The position numbers were made by a program, and so were the translations under genes. From an uncultured Clostridia bacterium (GTDB taxonomy: Bacteria > Bacillota > Clostridia > TANB77 > CAG-508): a DNA stretch of 64,000 nucleotides. The notes under the pieces are model-generated. The model saw nothing but the letters and a program-made list of their open reading frames with translations, searched no databases and was not told where the DNA came from. Where the stretch lies: assembly GCA_934154515.1 (NCBI GenBank), contig CAKPGD010000001.1:2809-66808 (forward strand), given 5' to 3'. Each line of letters opens with the position of its first letter. Position 1 is the first letter of the stretch. Shown in pieces: positions 6,625 through 40,255 of the stretch.

Positions 6625-6642
6625 TTTTTCCTTTCTTTTGTT

Positions 6643-11624: not shown

Positions 11625-12551
11625 TTATCTATTTAATTCTTGTTTTTGTTCTTGTTCTTTTTGAACTATAAGTTTTTCTGCTGTTTCTTTATATACTTTT
11701 TGTTCTTTTTTTACATCATTTTCATTGTGCATATATTTATATACATTTTGTAATTTTTCTGATTGTTTTATTATTTCTAAGCAGTCTTTAAAATCTTCTT
11801 TATTTTCTATGCTATTATCTTTTATTTCTACTCCTGTTGCATCATATACAGCAACTGTTTTTCCGTCTATTTTAAATTCATATAGACCATTTTGTATTTT
11901 CTTTAATTCTTGGTTGCTTTGTAGTTTTTCATTTTGCGTTTGAGATGTTCTTTCATATGATATATCATTATTAAAATTATCTTTATTTGCAATTACTGTT
12001 TCGTTTAAATGATAGTATTCTAGTTGTTCTGCAGTTATTGGATTTTCTTTATGTTCCTTATTATATGCTTCTACCATTTTTTCTTTTGTAAATTCCGTTA
12101 TTGCTTCATCTCTATCATTTTCTTTTATTTTGCTGTCTATTTTTTCGAATAATTCATCATATGAATCTTTTTCTAAATTTTCTTCTATGTTTTTATCATA
12201 TGAATGATCTTGTGTTTCTATTGTAACTGGTTCTTGTTTATATGCGTTGCTTATTGTATATGTGCCTCCTAAAACAGCTACTGATAGCATTCCCATTCCT
12301 GCCATTACTTTTAACTTTTTTATTCTTGCTTTTTTTATTTCATAGTCTTTTTTTATTTTTGGATGTTTTTCTAAATATTCTTTTATTATTACTTTTTTAT
12401 TTTTTTTGAATTCCTCTTCTATTCCTTTTTGGAATTCTCTTCTCATTTCTTTATCTGTAGTTTTTGCAATTTGATTTCCATAGTATTCTTTTTTATACCA
12501 CTTTTTTGCTATTTTTTCTAATTGTTTATCTATATTCATTAATTTGCTCAT
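11625..12551 (-). CDS. Hypothetical Lys/Glu-rich protein with single internal TM segment
   Basis: 308 aa. Has a highly charged N-terminus, a TM (VMAGMGMLSVAVLGG) and a charged C-terminal part. No recognisable catalytic motif. Confidence 0.5.
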   Translation of the reverse strand: MSKLMNIDKQLEKIAKKWYKKEYYGNQIAKTTDKEMRREFQKGIEEEFKKNKKVIIKEYLEKHPKIKKDYEIKKARIKKLKVMAGMGMLSVAVLGGTYTISNAYKQEPVTIETQDHSYDKNIEENLEKDSYDELFEKIDSKIKENDRDEAITEFTKEKMVEAYNKEHKENPITAEQLEYYHLNETVIANKDNFNNDISYERTSQTQNEKLQSNQELKKIQNGLYEFKIDGKTVAVYDATGVEIKDNSIENKEDFKDCLEIIKQSEKLQNVYKYMHNENDVKKEQKVYKETAEKLIVQKEQEQKQELNR

Positions 12552-12700
12552 AATTACTCCTCCTATGTGCTAAATCTATGTTAATTATACTACTTTTAAA
12601 AACAATTGTCAAAATTTTACAGAATTCGTAATTTTTAATTTTTTTATATTTTTATAATTTTATTTTTATGTTTTTTATTTTGAGTTTGATTTTTTTATTT

Positions 12701-15700
12701 TTACATTATTACTTCTATATCATATATTTTTCCATCGTCTATTAATTTTAGTTCCTTTTGTTCTATTTCTTGCCCGTTTACTTTAAATATTTCTACACCT
12801 GTATTTTTTTCGTCTGGATTTTTTACCTTTATATTATAAATTGTATCTTTATATTGGTAATGAATACTATACTCTTTCCATGTTTTGTCTATGCATGGTT
12901 GTATTTTTAATGTATTATTTTCTATTTTTAAACCTAATATATATTCTATTCCTGCTTTTAGCATCCAGCTTGCTGAACCAGTATACCATGTCCAACCGCC
13001 TCTTCCTGCTAAATTTTTGTGTCCATAAATATCTGCTGATATTACATATGGTTCTACCTTATATTTATTTGCTGATTCCATTGTTTTTGAGTGTTCTATT
13101 GGATTTATCATTCTAAATAGGTCTACTGCTTTATCTCCAAACCCTAACATTGCCTCTGCAATTATTGCCCATATTGCTCCATGTGTATATTGTCCTCCAT
13201 TTTCTCTAGTTCCTGGTAAATATGCTTTTATATAACCTGGCTCTAATTTGCTTTTTTCAAATGGTGGATCTAATAATTTTATTATTCCGTTTTCTCTGTC
13301 TATTAAATGGTTTTCTAAGCTTTCCATTGATATAAATTTTTTATCGTTATCTCCTGCTTTTGAAATTGTTGCCCAGCTTTGTGATATTCCATCTATTCTG
13401 CATTCTTCGTTTTGAAGACTTCCTAGTTCTTCGCCATCATCTGTGTATGCTCTTTTATACCATCTTCCATCCCATCCTGCTGTGTTTAATGCTTTTTTTA
13501 ATTTTTCTGTTGTTTGCTTATATCTAGCTATTGTTTCATTTAATTTTTGTTCTTGAGTAATAATTTCTTCTTTATTTGCTATTTCTTGTTGACTTTCTTG
13601 TTGACTTTCTTGTTGATTTTTCTGTTGATTTTCTTGTTGTTTCTCTTGTTGATTTTCTTGTCGTTTCTCTTGTTGTCTTTCTTGTTGCTCAATTATTTGC
13701 TGTTCTTTTTCTATTTTTTCTTTTTTAGCTTCCATTATTGGTATTAATTTGTTTAATACATCATAAAGGAAAAATCCTAGCCATACACTTTCACCTTTTC
13801 CTTTGTTTCCTACTGTACTCATGCTATCGTTCCAATCTCCTGAGCCCATTTTTGGAAGTCCATGTTCTCCAAAGTTCATTGATTTTTCTATTGCTCTTAT
13901 GCAGTGTTCATATATACTTTCTTTTATATTACTTTCTTCATATAAATCGTATCTTTCATCCACGCCTTCTTCTAGTATTGCTCCTTGTACATATGGTACT
14001 TGTATGTCTAATATTGTATAGTCTCCTGTCTGATTTATATATTCTGCTGTTAAATATACAAGCCATAATAAGTCATCTGAGAATCTTGTTCGTATTCCTT
14101 TTCTGTTTTCTTCATGCCACCAGTGTTCTACATCTCCTTCTATAAATTGATGGGCGGCATGCTTTATTATTTGTTTTTTCATGAATTCTGCATCTAAATA
14201 TTTTATTCCTAATGTGTCTTGAAGTTGGTCTCTATAACCGAATGCCCCTCCTGACTGATAAAATCCGCTTCTTCCCCATAATCTACATACTATTGCTTGA
14301 TATGCTAGCCATCCATTTAATAATATGTTAAATGATTCTACTGGTGTCTTTACTTGTAGCTTTCCTAGTAAGTTACTCCAATATTTTTTTACTTTATCTA
14401 ATTCATCTATGCAGTTTGATATTTTAGCAAACCTATAACTGTTATCTAAACTTGTTATTTTGTCTTCTTCCATTCCAAATATAAATGATATGTCCTTTGA
14501 TTCAAATGCTTCTAGTTCGACATTTATTTGAATTGCAATAACATTATCTATTCCTAGTGAATTTTCGTTGTTTAAACTTACTTTTCTTAATGCTTCTGGG
14601 TTGTTGAATGTTCCATTTCCTATAAAAAATTTCCTACTTCCTGTATATGATTCTATTTCTTCGCTGCATGAGACATAGGCATATTCGTTTTTATTTGATA
14701 TTTCATTTTTTACAAGAATTGTGTTTGAATTTTTTACAAATTCAAGGTTTATATATCCGTTTGAATTTATTTCGTCTTCTCCTAGCACTGGTTTTATATA
14801 ATATACTAGTTTTACTTTTTTTCTGTTTTGTGATAGATTTTTTAAGTTTAGTAGATTTATTTTTACATTGTTTTCGGTTGCTACAAATATGTTTAAATTT
14901 TGTGCTATTTCCATACTTGTATGACTGTATTTTGAGTATCCAAAACCATATGTTACTAAATAATCGTTGTTGTCTGGCATTGGGTTTAAACCTAATGACC
15001 ATGTTTTGCTTGTTGTTTCTTCTTTTAGATATATTACTTCTGAAGGATTATCTATTACTTGATTATTTGACCATGATGACATTCTATTTAATCTACTGTT
15101 TTTACTCCAAGTGAATCCTCCTTGTGCTTCTGTTACAAGTGTTCCAAAGTTACTGTTTGCCATAACATTACTCCATACTGTTGGAAGTCTTCTTTCTTTA
15201 TTTACTCTTATCAAATATTCTTTTCCATCTTTAGAAAATCCACCATATTCATTAAAATATTTTAAGTTTTCTGCTTCTAATAATGATGATGTTTTTTCTT
15301 CTTCTAATATTATTTTTTTAGGTACCTCATAGCCTATTTCTTTTAGTGTGTCTTCATATTCTTCTTCTATATCTTTTAATTGCCTTTCTAACGGTCCTTT
15401 ACTACTGTCTATTATTAGATTTGCTCTATATTCTAAAAGTTCTTTGCTTTCTAAGTCATCTATTATAAATATTCCTCCTCTTATATTTTGCATATAAGAT
15501 AGATTTTGATTTAATATTCCATTTATTATGCTTTCTTTTACATATCTTTCGTATTTGTTTTCTTCTTTGTCTAATATTACTAAATCTATATTTATGTTTT
15601 TTGACCTATAAAATTCGTATGCTTTTAGAATTTCTTCTAATATATATGTTTCGTTTACTTCTTGCATTTCTAATAGTACTATTGGAAGATCTCCTGAAAT

Positions 15701-18700
15701 TCCGTATTTCCATAAATTTTCTTGTGAATAGTCTTTTTCTGGTAATTTGTTTAAATATAGTTTCTTTAACGGATTTTGATATAATATATATCCTAGCATT
15801 TTTTGATAGTTTTCTATATCTTTATGCTTTATTTCTAAATATCTTGCTTCTGCTTCTACTCTAGCCTTTGATAGTTCAAAAGTTTTCTTTATTTTTTCTT
15901 CATTTGAATATTCTTTTACATTTTGTATAGCTGTTTTTCTTTCTTGTGATGCTGAAATTATTAAGCTTAGGTTTGATGTTTTTTCTGGTTCTATTTTTAT
16001 AGTTCTTTTTATTGCTACTATTGGATCTGTTACTAAATTTGTACTTTTTGAAAATGGTTTTGAGTTTTCTACCATTATTGGAAGATTTATATTTCCTCTA
16101 CCATAAAATTTTTCTTTATCTATTTCGTATTCTAGTTCTCCTATTGTTTCGTTATTAGTATACAATGTTACGGCCATATACATTTCTTTTTCTTCAGCTG
16201 TATGTTTTCTTCTTTTTACTACTAAAATATTTTCATCCTCTAAATATTCAAATGTTAGAAATAAATTGTTAAATGCAGGGTGCGCATAGTCTTGAATTGC
16301 TTTAGATAGTACTGGCTCTAAGCTTGTTGTTATTTCTAATGTTTCTTCTTCTAACCCATAATTTTTTAATTCTATATTTCTTATTTCTACCGCTTCTTCT
16401 GGAGCTACCGTTACTTTTAATTTTGTTTCTACAGACCCATCTAATCTTCTTATTTTGCTTACATCTTCGGAAAAACTTACTTCATATTTATCTGGTTTTG
16501 GCAAATAATTCATATAGTTTGATGTCCAAATTTTATTATTTCTAATATTTTTCAAATAAAATACTATTCCTTGTATTTCATCTGAAAGTGGTTTATATCT
16601 ATTTATTAAAACGTCATCTAGCCTGCTAAATCCATTTCCTTTTTGATCCATTACTATTAAATACTTATCATTTGCTATTGCATTTATTATATTTCGTTTT
16701 TCATTTATTTTATTAAATACTCTTGTTGCATTGCTTTCATAGTCCATATATTTTATTTTTTCTGGCTTTTTCTTTTCTTCTTTTGTTATTATCATGTCTT
16801 CTGGCATTTTTTCCTGTAATAGTATATCAACTGCTTCTATTTCCGGATTTTCGTTAAATCTTTTTACTAATATATCATCATTAAACAAGTTGTTTATTGA
16901 TAGTAATATTAAGGCTTGATGATGTGCCATATATGTTTTTACTACTTCATATTTTTTGCCTTTGCTTAAATTTCTTGGTGTAAAGTCTAAAGATTCATAA
17001 AAGCCGTATTTGCCATACATTTTATATTTTTCTAGTTCTTTAAAGTTTTCTATAACTTTATTTGGTATTTCTTTTAATGCTAATGCTGATGCATAGCTTG
17101 CAACTACTATGTCATCTTCTAGTCCTCTTTTTAATCCTAACCACGGAATTCCTATTGCTTTATATTGATAGTTATTGTTTAGGTCTTTTACATTAAATGC
17201 TGTTTCTGAAAATCCCCATGGTATTTCTAATTTTTTTGCATATTGCATTTGATTACTTATCATAAATTTACAAGATTCATCTAATAGGCTTCCTTTATAT
17301 TTTTTCATTATTATATTTGGCATTAGATATTCAAAAGCTGTTCCTGACCATGATATTAATCCTTTATATTCTCCAAGTACTGTTAGAGTTCTGTTTAAAT
17401 TATACCAATGTTTTTCTGGCACATCTTTTTTTGCTATTGCTACAAAGCTTGCTCCTCTTGCTTCTGAAGCTAATAAGTCATAATATGAATCTGTTAGTTT
17501 GTTTTCTTCTATATTAAACCCTATTGAAAATATATTTTTTTCTTTATCATATAGCTTACTAAAATCTGCATTTGCTATTGATATTTCATTTATTGGTTTA
17601 TTTACCCAGTTTGGAATTAGTTCTAGTAGTTTTTCATTTTTACCTATTTTTTCTATAATTTCTTTATAAAATTCTTTTAATACATATACATATTCTATAA
17701 AGTTTCCGCTATCTACTGTTGATATATACCTTGGTATTAATGGTTCTAACGTTTTTGTATTATACCAATTGTATAAATGCCCATTCCATTTTTGTAATTT
17801 TTCTATTGTTGTAAGCATTTTGTTTAAAAGTAATAATGTGTCTTCTAAATTTTCATAGCCCAGGTCATAACTTGCAATTACCGTTAGAAGTCCTAATCCT
17901 ATATTTGTAGATGATGTTCTTGAGACTATTTTTTCTGTTCTATCTTCTTGATAATTATCTGGTGGTAAAAAATTGTTTTTTTCGTTAATATTTTCTTTAA
18001 AGAATTTCCATGTTCTTCTTCCTATTTCAAGTAAGTATTCTTTATCTTCTTTAACTACTTTTTCTATTGCTTTTTCTTCTTTTTTTGTTTTACTTATATA
18101 GCACATAAATGCTGGTGTTATAAGCCAAAGTATAGCAAGTATTAATATTAATACGTTTTTTAATGCTAAAAAATATATTATACCCAATATTCCTAGAACT
18201 ACATTTGAAAACATATTTTTATAATAAGTTTTTAAATCTTGTTTGCTTAATTTTTCGCTTTCTTCTGATGTTATCCATTCTAGCAAGTGTTTATTGCTTA
18301 TTTTCATTCTGTATATACTTTTTATCATAGCATTTAAAGATGTATAGGCCTTGTCTGGTAATGTTGCTATTGCTATTACTCCTCTTATTATACTTGCTAA
18401 AAATGAATTTATTGTAGATTCAAATCTTTTTTGATATTTATTTCCTACTTTTCTAAATACTATTTTATTTATTATATCTATTATTGTTGGCATTATTATT
18501 GATATTATTGCGATTGCCATATATATTGAAGAATATTTTATTTTTAAACCCCTTGATATTGCGAAAATTATTATTAGTAAAACTGATGTAATAGGAAGGA
18601 TTTCTCTTATTAAATTATCTAATATCTTGTACCTACATAAAATATTTAATGGGTTTTTCTTTTTTATTTCTTTTCTATTTATGATGTTTTCTTTAGTCCA

Positions 18701-21061
18701 ATTATATATTTGAAAGTCTCCTCTTATCCATCTGTGTTGTCTTGTTTTATAGCTATTATAGCTTGAAGGATAACCATCCATTAATAGTATGTCTGTGGCA
18801 AGTCCACATCTCAAATAACTTCCTTCTAATAGGTCATGGCTTAGTACTGTGTTTTCTGGTATTTCATCTTTTAATACTTTTGAAAATACTTCTAAGTCAT
18901 AAATTCCTTTTCCAGTAAATATTCCTTCTTCGAAATTGTCTTGGTATATATCTGATATTGCATTCGTGTATGGATCTGTTCCTCCATTTCCTGCAAATAT
19001 TTTTGTAAATAGATTTTTTCTACTGCTTTCTATATTTATTCCTACTCTTGGTTGAATAAGTGCGTGCCCACTTATTACTACGTCTTCTTTTTTGCTTAAC
19101 TCTGGTTTGTTTAATATATGTGCCATCGCTCCTACTAGCTCTAGCCCTGTATTTAGAACTAATTCTGTATCACTATCTAGTGTTATTATATATTTTATTT
19201 TTTGTAATTCTTTTATATTGTTTTCTTTTTTCCATGTTTCTATCGTATTTTCTCTAAATATATTTTTTTCTTTTCCTAGTAAATAGTTGTTAAATTGATT
19301 TAATAAACCTCTTTTTCTTTCCCAACCTAAATAGCATTCTTCTTGTCCATTCCAAAATCTTTTACGATATATGAAGTTAAATTTTGGTAGGATTTTTTCT
19401 TGTTCTTCTTTATTATCGTATTTTTGATTTAATTCTTCTACTTCTTTTATTCCTTCTTCTATTACTTCTTCATCAAATTTTTCTTCTTTATTATTTCCTC
19501 CTGAACAGTCTCCTAATAGCGTAAAATATATATTTTCACTTTTATTTGCTAAATAATATACTTCTAGTTTTTTCATTAGTTCTTCTACTTTTTCTTTTGA
19601 TTTTAATATAGTTGGTATTACAACACAAGTAGCATATTCTTTAGGTATTCCATTATTTTTCATATCTAATTTTACTATCATTTTAGGTTTTACTATTTTT
19701 CCTAATATATATTGAACTATTTGTACAATTATTTCTTGTATTGGTATTAACGATAGTATAAAAAATACTACACTAAGTGTTATATTATTTATTGGTTTTG
19801 CTAATATTGCCCAGATTAGTGTATCTATAATTATTGTGCTTCCCCATATTCCATATATATAAATTTTTGATTTTGTTTGTGCTCTTATTTTTTTGCTTTC
19901 TTGCCCTGTTAATTCTTTTAAAAGTTCTTCTTTTCCATCATCTATTAAATAATACCCAACATGCTTACGTTTTTCTTTGTTTGTATTATTTTCTGATTCT
20001 AATTTGCTTTCTTTTTGTGCTAATTCTAATATTTTATTTGCAATATATATTTCAGATATTTTTGTTTTAGTAGATATTTCTTGGATTTTATTTCTATAAT
20101 ACTCTTTTGATTTATAATCCATTTTTTCATATATTTGTGCTGGATCTTTTTTTAATATTTCTTCTACTCCATTAATGCTTTGAAACACTTGCAAGAAATC
20201 CATTCTAAGTAACTCTTTTATACTTAAGATTGAATTTGCCATACTTACTTTTTTTACTGCTATGTCGAAATGTTCTTTTCTAATTACTTCTTCTGTTGTC
20301 GTTCCCATTTTGTTTACTTCTTCTTCAAGTATGTTTATATAGCTATATGCAGACTTTCCATATTTTTTTAGTCTATATGACATATACTCTATAAAAGGGT
20401 ATTTCATTTCTCCATACCCTTTTACTTTTTGTTTATAGTCTCCTAAATTTTTATATTTCAATTCTTGCTTGTTTTCTACTAGTCTTTCTATTATATTTTC
20501 TACTCTATATTTTTGCATTTGACTAAAATATATTTTTTCACAAATATCTCTTATATTTTGTATTAATGCTATTTGAATAAATAAGCCTATATTCCATATT
20601 TCGTCCATATTTAGACTCTTTTTTCTCTGATAACTATTAACTAATTCTCCTATTGTTTTTGAATCTATGGTGTTGTCTGTATAGGCTGTAATTTCTGTTG
20701 CTAGCACATATATTCTTGCAAATCCTTTATATACTCCATTTGATATTCCTAAAAATTTAACATATTTACTTAATGGCATTTGTTTTTCTACCATTTGAAT
20801 TGTTTCTTCTATTACATAAAAGTTGTCTAACAACCATTCTCCTGCTGGATGTATTGGAATTCCTAATTTTATGTGTTCATTTAGTAATTGATACACTTCT
20901 TCTATTGCTTCAAAATTTTCTTTCAGTTGTGGTATTGGATATGTTTCTTTGCTACTGTTTTGCTGTAATATATGATCTGATGCAATTTTTTCTAAATAGT
21001 TCTCTAATTGACCTTTTTCTAATACTGTTCCTTTTATATTTAATTTTTTATAATTTTTCAT
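12701..21061 (-). CDS. Giant membrane glycosyltransferase/glycoside phosphorylase fusion, cyclic beta-1,2-glucan synthase (Cgs/NdvB)-like (GT84 + GH94)
   Basis: The longest ORF is 2799 aa; the RBS-supported start is the internal Met at 21061 (AAGGGGTGG then 9 nt then ATG). About 6 TM helices flank a GT domain that carries a QxxRW-type motif (RQHRWIRGD). The C-terminal third matches the GH94 cellobiose-phosphorylase-like fold (GWLAYQ...RSGFYQSGGAFGYRDQLQD). Size and architecture match NdvB/Cgs (about 2800 aa). Confidence 0.75.
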   Translation of the reverse strand: MKNYKKLNIKGTVLEKGQLENYLEKIASDHILQQNSSKETYPIPQLKENFEAIEEVYQLLNEHIKLGIPIHPAGEWLLDNFYVIEETIQMVEKQMPLSKYVKFLGISNGVYKGFARIYVLATEITAYTDNTIDSKTIGELVNSYQRKKSLNMDEIWNIGLFIQIALIQNIRDICEKIYFSQMQKYRVENIIERLVENKQELKYKNLGDYKQKVKGYGEMKYPFIEYMSYRLKKYGKSAYSYINILEEEVNKMGTTTEEVIRKEHFDIAVKKVSMANSILSIKELLRMDFLQVFQSINGVEEILKKDPAQIYEKMDYKSKEYYRNKIQEISTKTKISEIYIANKILELAQKESKLESENNTNKEKRKHVGYYLIDDGKEELLKELTGQESKKIRAQTKSKIYIYGIWGSTIIIDTLIWAILAKPINNITLSVVFFILSLIPIQEIIVQIVQYILGKIVKPKMIVKLDMKNNGIPKEYATCVVIPTILKSKEKVEELMKKLEVYYLANKSENIYFTLLGDCSGGNNKEEKFDEEVIEEGIKEVEELNQKYDNKEEQEKILPKFNFIYRKRFWNGQEECYLGWERKRGLLNQFNNYLLGKEKNIFRENTIETWKKENNIKELQKIKYIITLDSDTELVLNTGLELVGAMAHILNKPELSKKEDVVISGHALIQPRVGINIESSRKNLFTKIFAGNGGTDPYTNAISDIYQDNFEEGIFTGKGIYDLEVFSKVLKDEIPENTVLSHDLLEGSYLRCGLATDILLMDGYPSSYNSYKTRQHRWIRGDFQIYNWTKENIINRKEIKKKNPLNILCRYKILDNLIREILPITSVLLIIIFAISRGLKIKYSSIYMAIAIISIIMPTIIDIINKIVFRKVGNKYQKRFESTINSFLASIIRGVIAIATLPDKAYTSLNAMIKSIYRMKISNKHLLEWITSEESEKLSKQDLKTYYKNMFSNVVLGILGIIYFLALKNVLILILAILWLITPAFMCYISKTKKEEKAIEKVVKEDKEYLLEIGRRTWKFFKENINEKNNFLPPDNYQEDRTEKIVSRTSSTNIGLGLLTVIASYDLGYENLEDTLLLLNKMLTTIEKLQKWNGHLYNWYNTKTLEPLIPRYISTVDSGNFIEYVYVLKEFYKEIIEKIGKNEKLLELIPNWVNKPINEISIANADFSKLYDKEKNIFSIGFNIEENKLTDSYYDLLASEARGASFVAIAKKDVPEKHWYNLNRTLTVLGEYKGLISWSGTAFEYLMPNIIMKKYKGSLLDESCKFMISNQMQYAKKLEIPWGFSETAFNVKDLNNNYQYKAIGIPWLGLKRGLEDDIVVASYASALALKEIPNKVIENFKELEKYKMYGKYGFYESLDFTPRNLSKGKKYEVVKTYMAHHQALILLSINNLFNDDILVKRFNENPEIEAVDILLQEKMPEDMIITKEEKKKPEKIKYMDYESNATRVFNKINEKRNIINAIANDKYLIVMDQKGNGFSRLDDVLINRYKPLSDEIQGIVFYLKNIRNNKIWTSNYMNYLPKPDKYEVSFSEDVSKIRRLDGSVETKLKVTVAPEEAVEIRNIELKNYGLEEETLEITTSLEPVLSKAIQDYAHPAFNNLFLTFEYLEDENILVVKRRKHTAEEKEMYMAVTLYTNNETIGELEYEIDKEKFYGRGNINLPIMVENSKPFSKSTNLVTDPIVAIKRTIKIEPEKTSNLSLIISASQERKTAIQNVKEYSNEEKIKKTFELSKARVEAEARYLEIKHKDIENYQKMLGYILYQNPLKKLYLNKLPEKDYSQENLWKYGISGDLPIVLLEMQEVNETYILEEILKAYEFYRSKNINIDLVILDKEENKYERYVKESIINGILNQNLSYMQNIRGGIFIIDDLESKELLEYRANLIIDSSKGPLERQLKDIEEEYEDTLKEIGYEVPKKIILEEEKTSSLLEAENLKYFNEYGGFSKDGKEYLIRVNKERRLPTVWSNVMANSNFGTLVTEAQGGFTWSKNSRLNRMSSWSNNQVIDNPSEVIYLKEETTSKTWSLGLNPMPDNNDYLVTYGFGYSKYSHTSMEIAQNLNIFVATENNVKINLLNLKNLSQNRKKVKLVYYIKPVLGEDEINSNGYINLEFVKNSNTILVKNEISNKNEYAYVSCSEEIESYTGSRKFFIGNGTFNNPEALRKVSLNNENSLGIDNVIAIQINVELEAFESKDISFIFGMEEDKITSLDNSYRFAKISNCIDELDKVKKYWSNLLGKLQVKTPVESFNILLNGWLAYQAIVCRLWGRSGFYQSGGAFGYRDQLQDTLGIKYLDAEFMKKQIIKHAAHQFIEGDVEHWWHEENRKGIRTRFSDDLLWLVYLTAEYINQTGDYTILDIQVPYVQGAILEEGVDERYDLYEESNIKESIYEHCIRAIEKSMNFGEHGLPKMGSGDWNDSMSTVGNKGKGESVWLGFFLYDVLNKLIPIMEAKKEKIEKEQQIIEQQERQQEKRQENQQEKQQENQQKNQQESQQESQQEIANKEEIITQEQKLNETIARYKQTTEKLKKALNTAGWDGRWYKRAYTDDGEELGSLQNEECRIDGISQSWATISKAGDNDKKFISMESLENHLIDRENGIIKLLDPPFEKSKLEPGYIKAYLPGTRENGGQYTHGAIWAIIAEAMLGFGDKAVDLFRMINPIEHSKTMESANKYKVEPYVISADIYGHKNLAGRGGWTWYTGSASWMLKAGIEYILGLKIENNTLKIQPCIDKTWKEYSIHYQYKDTIYNIKVKNPDEKNTGVEIFKVNGQEIEQKELKLIDDGKIYDIEVIM
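13580..13692 (-). repeat. In-frame 15-nt tandem repeat (about 7 units) encoding (QQE[N/S/K]Q)n inside the Cgs-like gene
   Basis: Direct repeats ttcttgttgaytttc on the plus strand. They translate as EQQERQQEKRQENQQEKQQENQQKNQQESQQESQQE. Confidence 0.8.
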
Positions 21062-21141
21062 AAAAATTTTTCCACCCCTTGGCATATGTTTTATACACAT
21101 ATTGTTTGCCAGTTGTGGAAAATTTATGCATTATTTTGTTT

Positions 21142-22194
21142 CTATTTATATTTTTCTTGTATATTTTTTATACTTTCGTAGCGGTTCTTTAGTATGTCTA
21201 AAAATACACTTGCTATTTGTGGATCAAATTGTGTTCCACTGCATCTTTCTATTTCATTTATAACATCTTCTAGTGGAAGTGCATTTCTATATGTTCTTTT
21301 TGATGTCATTGCATCAAAAGTATCTGCAACTGCTGCAATTCTTGCAACTAATGGTATTTCTTCACCTTTTAATTGACTTGGATATCCTCTTCCGTCAAAT
21401 CTTTCGTGGTGATGTAATACTATTGGAATTATATCTTTAAATGTTTCTGCATTTCCTAAGATATGTACTCCTATTGAAGGGTGATTTTTTATTTGTGAAT
21501 ATTCTTCATCATCTAGTTTTGATTCTTTTAATAGAATACTGTCCGGAATTCCTATTTTTCCTATGTCGTGGAATAATCCGCCTATTTTTAATATATGAAG
21601 AGTATTTTCGTCTAAGCCCATTTTTTCTCCAATTAATACAGAGAACTCTGATACCCTGTCTGAATGACCTCTTGTATATGGGTCTTTTGCTTCTACTGTA
21701 TATCTTAATATTTGTATTGTATCTAAATATGCTTTTTCTAATTCTTCTTTTTTGTTTCTAAGTTCTTCATTTATTTGGCTTATTATATGCATTTGGTCAA
21801 CAGATTTTAATCCAGATTCTATTAATAATAGTAATTGATCAAAATTATTGCTTTTTTCACAATATCCTTGTATTTCTAGTTCTTTTAATGTTTGTAATGG
21901 TGGAGCTAAATCTTTATGCCCTGTTAGTAGCAAAATATATAATTCTTTATTAAATTTTCTTATTTCTTCAACTACTTGGTCACCATGTATTGGGTCCATT
22001 ATAAAGTCTAGTAGTAATAAATCATAATGATTCTTTTTTAATTCTTCTATCGCTTCAAGTGGATTTGAAAAGCAGATTAAATCATATCCAGATCTTCTAA
22101 GAACTACTTTTAATGAGTCTAAGATACCTGAATCATCATCTACTGCCATTATTTTATATGCTGAAGTTATTTCTTCTTTCATATATTTTCTCAT
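21142..22194 (-). CDS. Response regulator with REC domain fused to HD-GYP c-di-GMP phosphodiesterase domain
   Basis: 350 aa. N-terminal receiver (MAVDDDSGIL...LLLDFIMDP). HD motif (GGLFHDIGKIG) and HHERFDGRGYP HD-GYP signature. Confidence 0.85.
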   Translation of the reverse strand: MRKYMKEEITSAYKIMAVDDDSGILDSLKVVLRRSGYDLICFSNPLEAIEELKKNHYDLLLLDFIMDPIHGDQVVEEIRKFNKELYILLLTGHKDLAPPLQTLKELEIQGYCEKSNNFDQLLLLIESGLKSVDQMHIISQINEELRNKKEELEKAYLDTIQILRYTVEAKDPYTRGHSDRVSEFSVLIGEKMGLDENTLHILKIGGLFHDIGKIGIPDSILLKESKLDDEEYSQIKNHPSIGVHILGNAETFKDIIPIVLHHHERFDGRGYPSQLKGEEIPLVARIAAVADTFDAMTSKRTYRNALPLEDVINEIERCSGTQFDPQIASVFLDILKNRYESIKNIQEKYK

Positions 22195-22219
22195 ATTATT
22201 TTCCTCCTATTGCTAGATT

Positions 22220-24025
22220 TTATTGTGGTAATACTATATTAAATGTTGTACCAACTCCTACTTTAGATTTAAAGTTTATGTCTCCATTGAAGTGTCCTTT
22301 TATTGTTGAGTATGACATAAATAATCCTAGTCCTGTTCCATTATGTCCTTTTGTTGTAATCATTTCATTAAACAATTTTTTCTGTATTTCTTCTGGTATT
22401 CCACTTCCGTGGTCTATTACAGATATTATTATATTATTTTTTTCTTTATCTATAACTAAATCTATAACTTGGTCTGGTTTTCCGCCATATGATTGTATTG
22501 CATTTGATATTAAGTTATTAACTACTTGTACTAAACTGTTGATGTTTCCTATTATTTTAGTATGATCTTCTACTTTTTTAACTACATTTAATTTTATAAA
22601 TGCATTTTTTAATTCATGTTTCATTAATATATTAACTCTATTTAGTAGCTCTTCTACTTCAAATATCATTGTAGCATCTTCTGTCATATTAACTGCTTGA
22701 CCTTTTACAGCAGTTATGATGTCTGACATATATGAATCATATGAGTTTACTTTATTTACCCATTCTAGCATATCTTTTGCTATTGCTTGGTGGTCTTCTT
22801 TTGTAACATCTGGGTCATTTATAGATTTTTGATATTCTGTTATTAAATCTGTAAGTCCTTCCATTGCACCAGAAATTGACATTATTGGTGTTTTTAAGTT
22901 GTGTGCTATTCCACCTATCATTTGTCCTAATGAAGCAAGTCTCTCACGTTCCATTAATATGTCTTGATTTTGTTTTAAAACCTCCATGTCAAGTATATGT
23001 TGTGTTGTATCTTTAAATAGTATTAGCGTTCCTACATATTTTCTTTCTTTATAAATTCCTGTTATTTCTATATTGAAATATTTATTTTGTTTCTTTAATA
23101 TAGCTTCTGCTATATGTAGTTTTTCGTCATGTTTTATTGTTTTAAAATATTCTCCTAGCTTTTTCTTTTTTACTGTAATGCTTTTGGAAATTTCTATTTC
23201 TTCAAATTGTTTTCCTATTAATTTCTTTCTATCTATTTTAAATATTTTTTCAAATGTTTTATTACAGTTTGTTATAATTTCATCTTTGCTTAATACAACA
23301 TATGCATCTGAAATCTGGTCAACTATTGTTTTTAATGCTATTGGAGCAACGTCTAAGAAATCATATCTAAATATTGCAATAGCAAAACATAAGAATGTTG
23401 TCATGAATGAGATTGGTGTTATATATATGTTCATATCAAATACTGTCATTCCTAATATATTTACTATTAGCGGTACTAATGCACCTATTGCCATTAGTAT
23501 AAATTGTTTAGAAACTCCTTTTGAATCCTTCATAGAATTTTTTAATAGAATTATAATATCTATTATGAATAATCCATATGTATATACAGAATGGACATAG
23601 AAATATGGTCCAAATACTGTAGTTTCAGGATTTACAGAATATACTTTATAAAACAAATTGTGAAATTTATTTGTCCATAATACCAGCATTGTTGTTACTG
23701 GTATTATAAACAATAATAATTGGCTTTTCTTGTATTTCTTGTCTTCTGATAAGTTATACGCTATGAAGAATAATATTACTGGCATAAATACAACAAATAT
23801 GTATATAAAGTATTCTGGGTATATAGGGCTAATTGTTGGCACATAATTTATGATTAAAATTTGAGCTATTAGACCTACACACCAAAACATCATAGAATAC
23901 AACAAATAGTTAAATGTTGTTTTTAATTTTGAGTTCGTTGTCTTTTTCTTATTTATGTAAAAAATTGTTATAGCCTCTATTATGATTGTTATTAGCAATC
24001 CAATAAAGAATTCAAAGTATTTCAT
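22220..24025 (-). CDS. Sensor histidine kinase with N-terminal 7TM sensor domain, PAS-like region, HisKA and HATPase_c
   Basis: 601 aa. About 7 N-terminal TM helices. H-box LASLGQMIGGIAHNLKTP. C-terminal N/G boxes (NLISNAIQ...DHGSGIP...GTGLGL). Preceded by a GGAGGA RBS. Confidence 0.85.
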   Translation of the reverse strand: MKYFEFFIGLLITIIIEAITIFYINKKKTTNSKLKTTFNYLLYSMMFWCVGLIAQILIINYVPTISPIYPEYFIYIFVVFMPVILFFIAYNLSEDKKYKKSQLLLFIIPVTTMLVLWTNKFHNLFYKVYSVNPETTVFGPYFYVHSVYTYGLFIIDIIILLKNSMKDSKGVSKQFILMAIGALVPLIVNILGMTVFDMNIYITPISFMTTFLCFAIAIFRYDFLDVAPIALKTIVDQISDAYVVLSKDEIITNCNKTFEKIFKIDRKKLIGKQFEEIEISKSITVKKKKLGEYFKTIKHDEKLHIAEAILKKQNKYFNIEITGIYKERKYVGTLILFKDTTQHILDMEVLKQNQDILMERERLASLGQMIGGIAHNLKTPIMSISGAMEGLTDLITEYQKSINDPDVTKEDHQAIAKDMLEWVNKVNSYDSYMSDIITAVKGQAVNMTEDATMIFEVEELLNRVNILMKHELKNAFIKLNVVKKVEDHTKIIGNINSLVQVVNNLISNAIQSYGGKPDQVIDLVIDKEKNNIIISVIDHGSGIPEEIQKKLFNEMITTKGHNGTGLGLFMSYSTIKGHFNGDINFKSKVGVGTTFNIVLPQ

Positions 24026-24047
24026 TTTATCCTCCTAGTTTCTTAAT

Positions 24048-27000
24048 TTATAAATTTTCTAGTACTTTTCTTATGTATTCTATATCAATTTCTGGCCAGT
24101 CAAATCCAGCTTCTTTAAAAAATTTAAGTGTATTTTTATTTGAAATTACTAAATTTGTTTTATATACGAAGTTATCATCTTTGTCTAAGTCATTTACCAA
24201 TACATTTACATTATTAGTTCTTGACTCGTCATATAGCCATTTTTTTAGTTTCTTTTTAAATACATAATCTTCTACTATTTTTATGTCTATTTTTAATTGT
24301 TTTAATATTTCATATAATTCTTTTATATAAATGTGTTTTGAATTATATAAGTGCATTATTGATATTGGGAAATTATAGTATTCCATACATACTATAATAG
24401 CTTCTGCTATTTTATCAACTGGACTAAATTCTGCGTAATTTTCCATTATTGATTTTGGAATCATTCCTAATGCTAAAAATGCTTTTAATCTATTTAAAAA
24501 TGCATTATCTTCACTATTTTCTTGGAATTTACCATCTGAATATCTATTAGTTATATTTCCTATTCTTAGTATTATTCCTTTTAGTCTTTTACTTGCTAAT
24601 TCTTCTAAAATTAATTTTTCTGCTTCAAATTTACTTCTAACATATACGTTTTCTAGTGTTTGATTTACAAATAGTTTATCTTCTCCATATTCAATTACTT
24701 CGTCTGGTCTGAAGCTATTTGCTAATCCTACCATTGTATTTCCAGATACACTTACTGTTGAAGTTTGTATGAATTCTTTATTGAATTTTTCACAAAATTC
24801 TATAATGTTTTTTACACCTGTTACATTTATTTTTTCGAATACATTGTAATCTCCATAGTGTTTTACTAATGCAGCACAGTTTATAACTTGTTCTACATTT
24901 TCTCCTAATTGATTATATTGCTCTTCTGAAAGTCCATAATTTTTGTAAGTAATATCTCCGTCTATTACAAATATTCTTGTTCCTAATAAATTACTTAAAT
25001 CACTTCCAAAGTAATATTTGAATTTATTTCTTAATTTGTTTTCTGGTGATGTACTTGGGTCTTTTCTAATTAAACAATATATTTTTATAGAATCTATTTT
25101 TAATAATTCTGCTAATACATGAATTCCTAAGAATCCTGTTGCACCTACTAAAAGCACATTTTGTATTTTTCTTGGTCTTACTCTTATTTTATTTTCTTCT
25201 GCATTTTTCTTTATAAAGTTATTTATTTTTTCAAAGTCTTTTTCTGTATATTGTGGGTATAAAGCTTCTTCTTTGTTTTCTTCTAAGAATTTTGCTAATT
25301 CTCTAATTGTGTTATTCTTAAATATGTCTCCATAGTTAATGTTATACCCTATCTTCATAATTTCTAGTTGTAGTTTTAATGCGCATAAAGAGTCTCCGCC
25401 TATATCAAAGAAATTATCATCTATACTTATTTTTTCTAGCGAAAGGATTTCTTCCCATATTTTTACTAATTTTCTCTCTAATTCTGTTTCTGGTGCAATT
25501 ATTTCTTTTTCCTTTATTATTGGTAAAGGTAGTTCTTTTCTATCTATTTTTCCGTTTGGTGTATATTTAAAGTCTTCTAATTGTACTAGGTATGATGGAA
25601 CCATATAATTTGGTAAACTCATAGATAGTCTATTTTTTAAATTAGATATAGATACTCTACCTGTTGCTACAAAATATCCACATAAGATATCTCTTCCATT
25701 TACATTTTTTACAGCTACTACACTTGATGAAACTCCTTTATATGCACATATAGCATTTTCTATTTCTCCAAGTTCGATTCTTAGTCCTCTTATTTTTACT
25801 TGGAAATCGTTTCTTCCTAAACAGTCTATTTCTCCATTTGGAAGTACTTTTACTAAGTCTCCTGAATTATATATTCTGGAATTATTATATTCTATATATC
25901 TTTCTGATGTAAGTTCTGGTTTGTTTATATATCCTATTGAAACTCCGTCTCCTCCTATGAATAATGTTCCTATTACACCTTGTGGAACTTGATTCATATC
26001 ATTATCTAATACATATATTTCTGTATTTGCTATCGGTGTTCCTATTGTTATTTTTTTATTTAATGAAGTTATTTCTTTTAATGTTGAGCCAACTGTTGTT
26101 TCTGTTGGTCCATACATATTAAATACTTGTGCATCTGTTATATTTCTAATCTTTTTGAATAAGTCAAGTGTAAATGGTTCTCCTGCAAGTGATATTATTT
26201 TCATTTTTTGGATATATTCTATTGCTGTGTTTTCTGACATTAGTAGCTTAAATTTTGAAGGTGTTGTTTGTATTACTTCAACATTATTTTTTAAGCATAA
26301 TTCATTTAAAAGTATTGGGTTGTTTTGCTCTTCATTATTTGCTAAAACAACTTTCATTCCTGTACATAATGGTAATAAGCTTTCTAATACAAATATATCA
26401 AAACACATTGTGGTGATATTTACTATTGTTTTATCTTTTAGTGGCATTCTATCACACATTCCATAAATGAAGTTTACTACGCTTGATTGTTTTAATATAA
26501 CTCCTTTTGGTCTTCCTGTTGAGCCTGATGTATATATCATATATGAAACATCTGAAGATTTTGTATCTGTATCAAATGGTTTATATTCATCATAAGAATT
26601 TTCATCATCTACACATAAAGAGTCTACTTCTATTCTATCTTCGTAATTTTTTTCTGTAAGAACTAGTCCTACTTCACTATCTTCTAGAATATATTTTACT
26701 CTATCAACAGGGTATTTTGGATCGATTGGTAAATATCCTGCCCCCGCTTTTAAAATTGCAAACATAGAAACTATAAGTTCTGCTCTTCTGTCCATCATAA
26801 TTCCTATTACTTTATATTTCTTTTTAGAAATATTATTTTTATATGCTGGCATATTTATAATATGGTTTGCTAGTTTATTTACTTTTGTTTCTAATTCTTT
26901 ATAAGTATATTTCTCGTCTCCAAATACAAGTGCTATTTTGTCTGGTGTTTCTAATACTTGTTTTTCAAATAAATCTATTATTCTAAGTTCTTTTGAATAT

Positions 27001-31319: not shown

Positions 31320-31335
31320 CCTTTCATATACGGTT

Positions 31336-31364
31336 ATTATACAAAATTCTACAAATAAATGCAA
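31336..31364 (-). promoter_or_regulatory. SigmaA-type promoter of the NRPS operon: -35 TTGCAT, 17-bp spacer, extended -10 TGtATAAT
   Basis: Read on the minus strand. It lies inside the 5' end of the longest predicted NRPS ORF, and an AAGG RBS and in-frame Met codons follow downstream. Confidence 0.5.
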
Positions 31365-31461
31365 CATTTAAAGGAAAATATGTAAATTTATTTTTATACC
31401 TTTTTATCTACTTTTTTTATTTAATTTTTTACCTAAATTTTTATTCAATTTTACACTTTTT

Positions 31462-32185
31462 TTAATTATAAAAATATGAATTTATACCATTAAATATCCC
31501 CCATGCTAATTTATTTTGATAGTTGTCATCTAATAGCAGTTTTTCTTCTTCTTGATTTGAAAGAAAGCCACATTCTACTATAGAAATTGGTATTTCTACA
31601 TGTTTTATTATATATACATTTTCTAGTTTCATTGCTACTCTTTTGTTTTCTTTTTGTATTGCACTATTTAAATTTTCTTGCAATTCTTTTGCAAGTTTTG
31701 TACTATTTTCGTCGCCTTGTTTATAAAAGCATTGCCATCCCCAATACTGTTCTTGTGGAATTTTATTTAAATGTATTGAAATAAATATATCTGCTGAGTA
31801 TTCATTTCCTATTTTTACTCTATTATGTATGTCTGATAACTTTTTTTGTTTTAATGTTTTACTGTCTAAATCGTATATTGCATTTTCATCTGAACGAGTT
31901 AATATTACTGTTGCTCCTGATTGTTCTAATAAATTTTGTAATTTTAATGCTATTTTTAAATTAGTTTGTGCCTCTGTTGTTCCTGTACTACTTTGTGCAC
32001 CGCTCATCTGGTATTCCATGTCCTGCATCTACTACTATTACCTTGTTGGTTACTGGAGTAGCTACTGTTTCAACTGTATTTATTTTTTTATTATTTTGAC
32101 CTATGCTTGCTACAAGTATTGCAACAAATACAAAACTTAATAACATTATTATTCTCTTTTTTCTTATTATAAACATAACAAACAC
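31462..32185 (-). pseudogene. cwlD: cwlD-like N-acetylmuramoyl-L-alanine amidase (Amidase_3) split by a frameshift
   Basis: The N-terminal fragment (31988-32185: signal/TM + VIVVDAGHGIPDE) and the C-terminal fragment (31462-32028: GAQSSTGTTEAQTNLKIALKLQNLLEQSGATVILTRSDE...) are consecutive parts of one amidase in different frames. The frame switch falls near 32015-32030. Confidence 0.7.
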
Positions 32186-32231
32186 CTCATTAATTTATAT
32201 GAGATGTTTGTGTTTTTTATTCTTATAATTT

Positions 32232-33164: not shown

Positions 33165-33307
33165 ATTCTTTTGTTCCTTTCTCATGTAAGATTTATTTTT
33201 TATTAACTTTTTATCTCTGGTCTTTTTTATCTTATTTCGCTTTTTTTAGCTTATTATTTTTATTATTCTTATTTTGCTGTTTTTACTTTTTTCTTACTTT
33301 TATTTTT

Positions 33308-34126: not shown

Positions 34127-34290
34127 TCTGTTATCCCCTTGTTTTTATTTTATAAAGGGCGTAATTTTTTATTACGCCCGCTTTTTATGTTTATGTTTTT
34201 ATTTTTATATCTATTTCTTTAGAAAATTTCTTATTTTTGTTTTACGTTAATGTTATAAATAGTCTGTTTTCAAGTATTCTTTCAACTAAT

Positions 34291-35214: not shown

Positions 35215-35271
35215 ATTTTCACCTCATATTCATAAAAAATTATATCACAACATATTTTTAATGTAAACAAT

Positions 35272-35314
35272 AAAAAAAGAAAAATCTAACTAAAAGTCAG
35301 ATTTTTCTTTTTTT
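35272..35314 (-). terminator. Bidirectional rho-independent terminator after the 1636-aa adhesin gene
   Basis: Imperfect palindrome gaaaaatctaac...gtcagatttttc flanked by an A-run and a T-run. Confidence 0.6.
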
Positions 35315-35325
35315 GTATTATTTAA

Positions 35326-40236: not shown

Positions 40237-40255
40237 AATATTTATACCCCCTTCA

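What the first reader, a model, noticed from the sequence alone, without database searches (positions are those of the whole stretch)
12701..21100. 2799-aa GT84 + GH94 cyclic beta-1,2-glucan synthase-like protein in a Gram-positive spore former
Size and TM topology match Cgs/NdvB (about 2800 aa). There are two TM helices before and four or more after a GT domain carrying a QxxRW-like RQHRWIRGD motif. The C-terminal GH94 region includes RSGFYQSGGAFGYRDQLQD. Cgs/NdvB is best known from alpha-proteobacteria, where the cyclic glucan is a host-interaction factor. A Firmicute version placed in an operon with a c-di-GMP phosphodiesterase and an NRPS is unusual. Its product (cyclic vs linear beta-1,2-glucan) is unknown.
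Basis: partly seen in the sequence, partly recalled or inferred. Interest (0 to 1): 0.65.

Follow-up and report, generated by a model that had tools for sequence, protein, structure and literature searches.

The report

Summary
An uninterrupted ORF lies at 12701..21100 (minus strand, 2799 aa; the likely true start is M14 at 21061). It aligns colinearly over its whole length with the cryo-EM-solved A. tumefaciens Cgs (E=0, 1514 bits). Every residue shown experimentally to matter is present:
- GT84 D531, D642/D644, base D756 and R790-W791
- the primer tyrosine Y711
- GH189 cyclase E1213/E1299 with E1257 and H1393/H1394
- GH94 D2291 and catalytic acid D2425, with the GGQYTH motif

The claim that this is unusual in a Firmicute is not supported. 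At least 80 species-level genomes, all labelled Clostridia, Clostridium or Eubacteriales and mostly gut MAGs, carry full-length homologues at 47-63% identity. The GT84 half alone matches 2,593 50%-identity clusters. The cyclase domain of a Firmicute Cgs (Thermoanaerobacter italicus) has already been characterised.

The NRPS, sensor kinase and REC-HD-GYP genes are real, co-directional and tightly spaced. They form a ~10 kb block inserted between an amidase gene and cgs. Relatives at 70-72% identity lack the block, and it was found in only 1 of 80 other species, inverted there.

A side finding: in 11 related loci cgs is split exactly at the GGQYTH codons by a mobile element carrying a large serine recombinase. 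The window has the empty site.

Verdict: new member of a known kind, modest interest.

The parts
12701..21100 (-). cgs ORF, 2799 aa from the first ATG (probable true start M14 at 21061, giving 2786 aa)
19865..21100 (-). N-terminal scaffold domain (aa 1-412), homologous to the AtCgs NTD
   Evidence: query 60-1140 aligns with AtCgs chain 8RF9_A 44-1095 (native 63-1114)
19715..19864 (-). TM helices 1-2 (aa ~413-462)
   Evidence: hydropathy scan
18626..19663 (-). GT84 glycosyltransferase domain (aa ~480-825) with D531, D642-x-D644, primer Tyr Y711, catalytic base D756, R790-W791
   Evidence: alignment to 8RF0_A; residues defined in PMC10901819; invariance in 120/120 sequences
18092..18613 (-). TM helices 3-6 and an amphipathic segment (aa ~830-1003)
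16766..18073 (-). Cyclase (CY, GH189) domain, aa ~1010-1445: S1127/D1130, acid/base E1213, E1257, nucleophile E1299, H1393/H1394
   Evidence: 8WY1 E=2e-136; 8RF0 E=4e-104; PF10091; residues from PMC10834661
12704..16765 (-). GH94 phosphorylase half (aa ~1446-2799): two supersandwich modules and the catalytic barrel, with D2291, catalytic acid D2425 and GGQYTH 2635-2640
13582..13687 (-). 12-bp tandem repeat, 8.8 copies, encoding QQEx repeats inside a 116-aa loop of the GH94 barrel. Copy number differs between strains.
13179..13192 (-). Empty target site (CAATATACACATGG, codons Q2637-G2641) at which a large-serine-recombinase element interrupts cgs in related genomes
21142..22194 (-). Response regulator REC + HD-GYP (HDIGK and HHHERFDGRGYP intact), a putative c-di-GMP phosphodiesterase, 41 bp upstream of cgs
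22220..24025 (-). Sensor histidine kinase (HisKA_7TM-PAS-HisKA-HATPase)
24048..31367 (-). Two-module NRPS with terminal reductase (C-A-T-C-A-T-R). With the two genes above it forms a ~10 kb block inserted relative to close relatives.
31462..32176 (-). Amidase_3 (CwlD-like) gene, the conserved upstream neighbour of cgs in relatives. Here it is split by a +1 frameshift into a 62-aa ORF (31988..32176) and a 188-aa ORF (31462..32028).
11625..12551 (-). 308-aa Lys/Glu-rich single-TM protein downstream of cgs, with its own perfect sigma-70-type promoter (12612..12584) and an AGGAGG RBS

Best explanation
[quoted passage not shown] By homology with the A. tumefaciens enzyme, it is anchored by six TM helices with all catalytic domains in the cytoplasm. 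The GT84 domain first glucosylates Tyr711, then extends a beta-1,2-glucan from UDP-glucose. The C-terminal GH94 phosphorylase trims the chain and sets its length. The central GH189 domain cuts the chain off the protein-bound primer by transglycosylation onto its own end. This releases a cyclic beta-1,2-glucan of roughly 17-25 glucoses. What is shown here: domain architecture, colinearity, and conservation of every experimentally defined catalytic or primer residue, in this protein and across 118 clostridial homologues. What is inferred: enzymatic activity, product ring size, and the fate of the product in a cell that has no periplasm. The neighbouring NRPS, kinase and REC-HD-GYP genes are a later insertion next to cgs. 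They may be co-transcribed with it but are not part of the conserved system.
For: Full-length colinear match to solved AtCgs: E=0, 1514 bits, three stretches covering query 60-2749. Pfam finds Glycoamylase, 2x GH94 supersandwich and the GH94 catalytic domain. GT84 residues D531, D642/D644, Y711, D756 and R790/W791 align with AtCgs D527, D624/D626, Y694, D739 and R773/W (roles from PMC10901819). GH189 residues E1213, E1257, E1299 and H1393/H1394 align with TiCGS E1356, E1400, E1442 and H1536/H1537 (roles from PMC10834661). GH94 D2291 and D2425 align with AtCgs D2393 and D2528. Y711 and the RxxRW.RGD.Q motif are invariant in 120/120 aligned sequences; other motifs occur in 114-120 of 120. The hydropathy pattern is 2+4 TM helices. 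Intact orthologues occur in 80+ species at 47-63% identity, and the frame is open over 8.4 kb at 27% G+C, which indicates purifying selection.
Against: No biochemical data exist for this protein or for any full-length Firmicute Cgs; only the isolated T. italicus cyclase domain has been assayed. No ChvA/NdvA/Cgt-like ABC exporter is present among ORFs of 150 aa or more in the 64-kb window, and a monoderm has no periplasm to fill. The physiological destination and role of the product are therefore unknown. The cyclase domain is ~110-145 aa shorter between the VDSGN and DLLASE motifs than in AtCgs and TiCGS. The GH94 barrel carries a 59-aa low-complexity insert. Either could alter ring size or length control. 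NCBIfam returned no family.
Confidence: 0.85

Rival explanations
1. cgs is a functional part of an NRPS / two-component / c-di-GMP operon. The kinase senses a signal, the REC-HD-GYP regulator lowers c-di-GMP, and glucan synthesis and the NRPS product are co-regulated.
For: The four genes are co-directional with 22, 25 and 41 bp gaps and no minus-strand terminator-like site between them. The HD and GYP motifs are intact. The identical arrangement recurs on at least 9 metagenome contigs of the same species. A related NRPS-HK-REC-HD-GYP cassette also lies next to cgs in a distant species, L069. A REC-GGDEF-like gene is a conserved neighbour two genes upstream in relatives.
Against: The closest relatives outside the species (70-72% identity, L081-L083) have the amidase gene next to cgs and no cassette. 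Only 1 of 80 other species has the cassette, and there it is divergently oriented, so co-transcription is not conserved. Pfam finds no PilZ or other c-di-GMP-binding domain in Cgs. The REC-GGDEF neighbour has a degenerate GGDDF motif. Other cgs neighbours in relatives are housekeeping genes: OmpR-type regulator/kinase, signal peptidase, HolB, RuvA.
Confidence: 0.15
2. The enzyme makes linear rather than cyclic beta-1,2-glucan, or works mainly in the degradative direction (phosphorolysis/transglycosylation of imported beta-1,2-glucans).
For: The cyclase domain has a shortened segment compared with the two characterised enzymes. TiCGS-Cy gives linear or cyclic products depending on substrate length (PMC10834661). 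GH94 reactions are reversible.
Against: The cyclase nucleophile, acid/base and supporting residues are all conserved. The GT84 active site and primer tyrosine are conserved and invariant across the clade, which makes no sense for a purely degradative enzyme. All catalytic domains are cytoplasmic in the homologous structure (PMC10901819).
Confidence: 0.08
3. The gene is a decaying or non-functional relic in this reduced genome.
For: In some strains of the same species, cgs is truncated at aa 2640 by a mobile element. The adjacent amidase gene is frameshifted.
Against: The window copy is intact over 2799 codons with all catalytic residues. Orthologues are intact in dozens of species.
Confidence: 0.03

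Closest known systems
Agrobacterium tumefaciens Cgs/ChvB (PDB 8RF0, 8RF9; Sedzicki et al. 2024, PMC10901819) and Brucella Cgs, Sinorhizobium NdvB
   Same: Same length class (~2800 aa) and the same order: NTD, 2 TM, GT84, 4 TM, CY (GH189), GH94 with RFL insert. All mutationally defined residues are conserved, including primer Tyr, GT base Asp, RW, CY Glu and GP Asp.
   Different: The host is a monoderm, spore-forming gut Clostridia rather than a diderm alpha-proteobacterium. No ChvA/NdvA/Cgt exporter gene lies nearby. The CY domain is ~110 aa shorter between VDSGN and DLLASE. There is a 59-aa Q/E-rich repeat insert after the GH94 catalytic acid. The biological role is unknown; no periplasmic osmoprotection is possible.
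Thermoanaerobacter italicus CGS cyclization domain, founding member of GH189 (PDB 8WY1; Tanaka et al. 2024, PMC10834661)
   Same: A Firmicute Cgs. It is the best PDB match for the middle domain (E=2e-136, 459 bits). E1356/E1442/E1400/H1536/H1537 equivalents are all present.
   Different: TiCGS has an extra ~145 aa (chain 145-291) that the window protein and its gut relatives lack. Only the isolated TiCGS domain was studied, in vitro.
GH94 1,2-beta-oligoglucan phosphorylases (Listeria innocua, Lachnoclostridium phytofermentans SOGP) and cellobiose phosphorylases
   Same: The C-terminal half shares the supersandwich + (alpha/alpha)6 fold family, the catalytic Asp and the RDxxQD / GGQYTH motifs.
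   Different: Those are stand-alone soluble catabolic enzymes of ~800-1100 aa without GT84, TM or cyclase modules.
Gene-intervening elements of spore formers: skin in sigK, SPbeta in spsM, gin in gerE, yin in yabG (PMC4191935, PMC5595907, PMC10747680). Relevant to the side finding only.
   Same: In related genomes a 6.35-kb element with a large serine recombinase at one end splits cgs precisely within a codon run, with a short shared core and inverted-repeat ends.
   Different: Excision during sporulation has not been shown. cgs is not a known sporulation gene. The window itself carries the uninterrupted gene.

Membership tests
[quoted passage not shown] | Full-length colinear homology to a structurally solved Cgs, with the domain order NTD-TM-GT84-TM-CY-GP | tested here: met
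   E=0, 1514 bits; query 60-1140, 1177-2459 and 2523-2749 align in order with AtCgs 8RF0/8RF9. Pfam PF10091, PF06165 x2, PF17167.
[quoted passage not shown] | GT84 active site: UDP-binding Asp, DxD, catalytic base Asp, R-W of the QxxRW-like motif | tested here: met
   D531, D642/D644, D756 and R790-W791 align with AtCgs D527, D624/D626, D739 and R773-W (roles: PMC10901819).
[quoted passage not shown] | Autoglucosylated primer tyrosine on the IF1-homology loop (AtCgs Y694) | tested here: met
   Y711 in GGTDPYT aligns with Y694. Tyr invariant in 120/120 aligned sequences.
[quoted passage not shown] | GH189 cyclase catalytic pair (acid/base Glu, nucleophile Glu) with supporting Glu and His-His | tested here: met
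   E1213, E1299, E1257 and H1393/H1394 align with TiCGS E1356, E1442, E1400 and H1536/H1537 (roles: PMC10834661). AtCgs S1101/D1104/E1300 equivalents are S1127/D1130/E1213.
[quoted passage not shown] | GH94 phosphorylase catalytic acid and phosphate-site motifs | tested here: met
   D2425 (GDWND) aligns with AtCgs D2528, and D2291 (FGYRDQLQD) with D2393. ENGGQYTH is present at 2633-2640.
[quoted passage not shown] | Six TM helices, two before and four after the GT domain | tested here: met
   Kyte-Doolittle scan finds ~415-433, 444-462, 830-848, 859-877 and 984-1002; ~963-981 was read from the sequence. No dedicated topology predictor was available.
[quoted passage not shown] | Product is a cyclic beta-1,2-glucan made from UDP-glucose | not testable with these tools
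   Needs enzyme assay, TLC, MS and NMR.
Proteobacterial cyclic-glucan system (Cgs + ChvA/NdvA/Cgt ABC exporter, periplasmic product) | A dedicated ABC exporter encoded with or near cgs | tested here: not met
   No ABC_tran or ABC_membrane protein among window ORFs of 150 aa or more, nor among the recurrent neighbour clusters of 80 related loci. The rest of the genome was not available.
HD-GYP c-di-GMP phosphodiesterase response regulator (RpfG type), the upstream neighbour | REC domain plus an HD-GYP domain with intact HD and GYP motifs | tested here: met
   Response_reg + HD_5 (E=4e-40). HDIGK and HHHERFDGRGYP. Activity not testable.
Conserved cgs operon with NRPS and two-component genes | The gene association is conserved across related genomes | tested here: not met
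   the cassette is absent from L081-L083 and from 79 of 80 species loci. In L069 it is present but divergently oriented.
Sporulation gene-intervening element (side finding in relatives) | A large serine recombinase element that precisely splits a coding frame, with developmentally regulated excision restoring the gene | tested here: inconclusive
   The precise split at aa 2640, the LSR at the element end and the shared 13-bp core are shown. Excision and its timing cannot be tested here.

The most novel reading that the evidence does not exclude
In this clade of spore-forming gut Clostridia, cgs could be a conditionally reconstituted gene. Large-serine-recombinase elements sit exactly in the GGQYTH codons of cgs, and another sits in the adjacent CwlD-like amidase gene. 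They could be excised in a programmed way, for example in the sporulating mother cell, as with skin/sigK or SPbeta/spsM. This would point to a role for cyclic beta-1,2-glucan in spore envelope formation or gut-host interaction in a monoderm bacterium, a physiological context never described for these glucans.
Probability: 0.1. Interest if true: 0.7.

Novelty: new member of a known kind. Interest (0 to 1): 0.3.

Why it matters
Cyclic beta-1,2-glucans are known as periplasmic osmoprotectants and host-interaction factors of diderm Proteobacteria such as Brucella, Agrobacterium and rhizobia. This window, together with the survey it prompted, shows that a complete and apparently active Cgs is a conserved gene of many uncultured gut Clostridia. 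At least one of these has a genome of only ~1.6 Mb. These cells have no periplasm and no obvious exporter gene nearby. The enzyme assignment itself is routine. The open question is what a monoderm gut commensal does with the product. That question becomes testable with the residue map given here. The cgs-targeting recombinase element offers a natural on/off polymorphism within one species that could be exploited for it.

Tried and rejected
1. NCBIfam scan of the protein returned no family, so it was uninformative.
2. I looked for a conserved functional partner by clustering ORFs around cgs in 80 related loci. The recurrent neighbours are housekeeping or sporulation-region genes: CwlD-like amidase, OmpR-type regulator and kinase, signal peptidase, HolB, PSP1, RuvA, RarA. 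No exporter or glucan-modifying enzyme appeared.
3. The 308-aa downstream gene has a homologue only in L083 and has its own perfect promoter. I rejected it as a conserved partner.
4. Promoter and terminator scans do not exceed shuffled expectation for promoters. They were used only to note the absence of minus-strand terminators between NRPS, HK, RR and cgs.
5. I considered whether the Q/E-rich insert is a domain. It is a hypervariable loop: median 57 aa in homologues, non-homologous inserts of up to ~50 aa, and strain-variable 12-bp repeats.
6. Structure prediction of the full protein is impossible (the limit is 1200 aa) and unnecessary given the E=0 sequence match to a solved structure. It was not run.
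7. I considered that the recombinase left of the amidase in L086/L087 is the other end of the cgs element. Its junction sequence differs, so it is more likely a second element. This was not resolved, because the flanks could not be fetched.
Full report
**Observation.** The window has ~27% G+C throughout, and nearly all long ORFs lie on the minus strand. A single ORF runs from 21100 down to 12701, giving 2799 aa. A hydropathy scan shows two helices before the GT region and four after it. A ribosome-binding site (AAGGGGTGG) precedes the third ATG. Homologue matches mostly start at query residues 4-13. Gene callers on identical metagenome contigs report 2786 aa. The true start is therefore most likely M14 (21061).

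**Identity.**
- Pfam finds PF10091 (Glycoamylase, GH144-like), two GH94 supersandwich modules and the GH94 catalytic domain.
- A sequence search of the PDB gives a colinear, essentially end-to-end match to the cryo-EM structures of A. tumefaciens Cgs (8RF0, 8RF9/E/G). The E-value is 0 and the score 1514 bits, with query 60-1140, 1177-2459 and 2523-2749 aligning in order.
- The middle domain gives a 451-bit match to 8WY1, the cyclization domain of Thermoanaerobacter italicus CGS.

I then mapped every residue with an experimentally assigned role. The AtCgs residues come from Sedzicki et al. 2024 (PMC10901819).

| Domain | Reference residue(s) | Role | Window residue(s) |
|---|---|---|---|
| GT84 | AtCgs D527 | UDP-binding | D531 |
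| GT84 | AtCgs D624/D626 | UDP-binding / DxD | D642/D644 |
| GT84 | AtCgs D739 | catalytic base | D756 |
| GT84 | AtCgs R773-W | RW motif | R790-W791 |
| GT84 | AtCgs Y694 | O-glucosylated primer tyrosine | Y711 |
| Cyclase | AtCgs S1101/D1104/E1300 | cyclase pocket | S1127/D1130/E1213 |
| GH94 | AtCgs D2393 | active-site Asp | D2291 |
| GH94 | AtCgs D2528 | catalytic acid | D2425 |
| GH189 | TiCGS E1356 | acid/base | E1213 |
| GH189 | TiCGS E1442 | nucleophile | E1299 |
| GH189 | TiCGS E1400 | supporting | E1257 |
| GH189 | TiCGS H1536/H1537 | supporting | H1393/H1394 |

The TiCGS residues come from Tanaka et al. 2024 (PMC10834661).

In an alignment of the window protein, AtCgs and 118 clostridial homologues, the primer tyrosine and the RxxRW.RGD.Q motif are invariant. 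Simple motif counts show the other catalytic motifs in 114-120 of 120 homologues. The protein is a Cgs by every sequence-testable criterion.

**Mechanism (inferred by homology).**
- The enzyme has six TM helices, with all catalytic domains cytoplasmic.
- GT84 autoglucosylates Y711 and elongates a beta-1,2 chain from UDP-glucose.
- GH94 phosphorolysis controls chain length.
- GH189 transglycosylation cyclises and releases the ring, regenerating the primer.

**Differences from the characterised enzymes.**
- The segment between the VDSGN and DLLASE motifs of the cyclase is 74 aa here. The median is 76 aa in 117 gut homologues, against ~187 aa in AtCgs and ~220 aa in TiCGS.
- The loop after the GH94 catalytic acid is 116 aa, against a family median of 57 aa. 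The extra length is a Q/E-rich stretch encoded by a 12-bp tandem repeat with 8.8 copies at 13582..13687. Its copy number differs between strains of the same species: the loop is 116, 108 or 100 aa.

**How unusual is it?** It is not unusual.
- The word-indexed protein search returned more than 4,100 hits at E<=1e-50. The top 120 were all ~2,450-2,900 aa with the same Pfam trio, at 56-98% identity.
- A scan of one genome per GTDB species found 488 stretches encoding a relative. The 80 best are nearly all full-length, at 47-63% identity. All are labelled Clostridia, Clostridium or Eubacteriales, and most are MAGs or uncultured isolates from human, rabbit, goat or chicken gut. They include Clostridium sp. 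CAG:389, CAG:780 and 28_17, and a closed 1.57-Mb MAG.
- The NTD-TM-GT84 part alone, which is specific to Cgs, matches 2,593 50%-identity clusters at E<=1e-30.
- A Firmicute Cgs domain has already been crystallised and assayed (PMC10834661), and GT84 has been listed for clostridial MAGs (PMC7229112).
- The literature searched does not discuss the physiology of cyclic glucans in monoderm bacteria. One review even calls T. italicus Gram-negative.

**Context.** Upstream of cgs, on the same strand, lie three genes:
- a REC-HD-GYP regulator with intact HD and GYP motifs;
- a HisKA_7TM-PAS histidine kinase;
- a C-A-T-C-A-T-R NRPS.

The gaps are 41, 25 and 22 bp, with no minus-strand terminator-like site between them, so co-transcription is plausible. 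Comparative data show this is a recent acquisition.
- In the nearest relatives outside the species (L081/L082 at 72% and L083 at 70% Cgs identity) the order is SdrD_B giant proteins, 306-aa gene, CmpB, REC-GGDEF, Amidase_3, cgs (with two extra small genes before cgs in L081/L082). In L083 the amidase is 83 bp from cgs.
- The window has exactly this upstream series at 31462..45256, but with the ~10.3-kb NRPS/HK/RR block between the amidase and cgs.
- Among the 80 species loci only L069 has a related cassette (HK 48% and RR 66% identity, with a single-module NRPS). There it is transcribed away from cgs.
- The arrangement is stable within the species. The exact regulator protein occurs on at least 9 contigs, from Hadza and British gut metagenomes among others.
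- Other recurrent neighbours of cgs are housekeeping genes.
- No ABC exporter is encoded in the window.
- Cgs has no PilZ domain.

I therefore rate a functional c-di-GMP/NRPS-cgs operon at about 0.15.

**Side finding.** In 11 of 88 loci, homology to Cgs stops exactly at His2640 of the ENGGQYTH motif. Eight of these are different species and three are strains of the window's own species. The junction continues with a conserved sequence, CATG|AGTGTTGTTGTTA, and the frame then reads ...GGQYTH-ECCC-stop.
- L066 contains the whole 6.35-kb insert, with cgs codons 2637-2799 resuming beyond it. The insert encodes an AAA_14/DUF4143 ATPase, an HTH protein, an FGE-sulfatase-like protein and a bAvd protein (DGR-like parts). 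A 542-aa large serine recombinase abuts the 3' part of cgs.
- The two junctions share the core CAATAYACMCATG and have inverted-repeat ends.
- The L086 and L066 elements are 86-91% identical in DNA, although their host Cgs proteins are only 52-63% identical. This indicates recent horizontal spread.
- The window carries the empty site (13179..13192).
- In L086/L087 a second serine recombinase abuts the 3' part of the amidase gene. In the window that gene is frameshifted 9 nt from the same junction.
- This geometry resembles the gene-intervening elements of spore formers (PMC4191935, PMC5595907, PMC10747680). Regulated excision is untested.

**Verdict.** This is a correct and well-observed annotation of a known enzyme family, so I class it as a new member of a known kind. 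The premise that it is unusual in a Firmicute fails, and the operon premise is lineage-specific. Residual interest lies in the unknown role of cyclic glucan in monoderm gut Clostridia and in the cgs-targeting recombinase element.

Noticed in passing
window 13179-13192 (empty site); L066 15868-22214; junctions in L008, L014, L022, L034, L042, L054, L079, L084, L086, L087: A family of mobile elements with a large serine recombinase integrates exactly in the GGQYTH codons of cgs. This truncates the protein at aa 2640 (...GGQYTH-ECCC*). The L066 copy is 6.35 kb and carries an AAA_14/DUF4143 ATPase, an HTH protein, FGE-sulfatase-like and bAvd (DGR-like) genes, and the recombinase. Occupancy is polymorphic within the window's own species. 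The L086 and L066 elements are 86-91% identical in DNA across hosts whose Cgs proteins are only 52-63% identical.
   Followed up: partly
window 31462-32176 (-); L086/L087 1-190: The CwlD-like Amidase_3 gene upstream of the NRPS is split by a +1 frameshift into a 62-aa ORF ending just after VVDAGHG and a 188-aa ORF. The frameshift is identical in four independent contigs. In L086/L087 a second large serine recombinase gene abuts the 3' part of this amidase, with its junction 9 nt from the frameshift.
   Followed up: partly
window 21142-31367 (-): The NRPS (C-A-T-C-A-T-reductase), 7TM-PAS histidine kinase and REC-HD-GYP regulator form a ~10.3-kb block inserted between the amidase gene and cgs, relative to the closest relatives. 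From memory and not verified here: the domain order resembles the gut-Clostridia NRPS family that makes dipeptide aldehydes/pyrazinones (Guo et al., Cell 2017). A related single-module cassette sits next to cgs in L069, in the opposite orientation.
   Followed up: partly
window 13582-13687 (-): A 12-bp tandem repeat (8.8 copies) encodes QQEx repeats inside the GH94 catalytic domain. The loop is 116 aa here, 108 aa in L084 and 100 aa in L086/L087. This is an in-frame VNTR in a hypervariable surface loop.
   Followed up: yes
window 32232-33185 (-): A REC + GGDEF-like response regulator with a degenerate GGDDF motif. With the CmpB-like membrane protein (33308..34126) and an Ig-like protein (34291..35214), it is a conserved upstream neighbour group of cgs in relatives (10-12 of 80 loci, limited by flank length).
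   Followed up: partly
window 35326-40236 and 40256-45256 (-): Two adjacent giant proteins (1636 and 1666 aa) with SdrD_B, DUF11 and CarboxypepD_reg-like domains. They are probably cell-surface adhesins and are also present upstream of cgs in L081-L083.
   Followed up: no
window 12584-12612 (-) and 11625-12551 (-): A perfect TTGACA-17-TATAAT promoter and an AGGAGG RBS precede a 308-aa Lys/Glu-rich single-TM protein just downstream of cgs. Its only detectable homologue is the gene in the same position in L083.
   Followed up: yes
window 21061-21100 (-): The first 13 codons of the listed ORF are probably not translated. The RBS and homologue alignments point to M14 as the start, giving a 2786-aa protein.
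   Followed up: yes
window 53860-54756 (-): A PD-(D/E)XK family transposase gene (PDDEXK_2). Homologues occur ~4 kb downstream of cgs in 9 related loci.
   Followed up: no
window 62202-63989 (-) and 6094-7143 (-): A 595-aa ORF and two ORFs of 166 and 176 aa have no Pfam match at E<=0.001.
   Followed up: no
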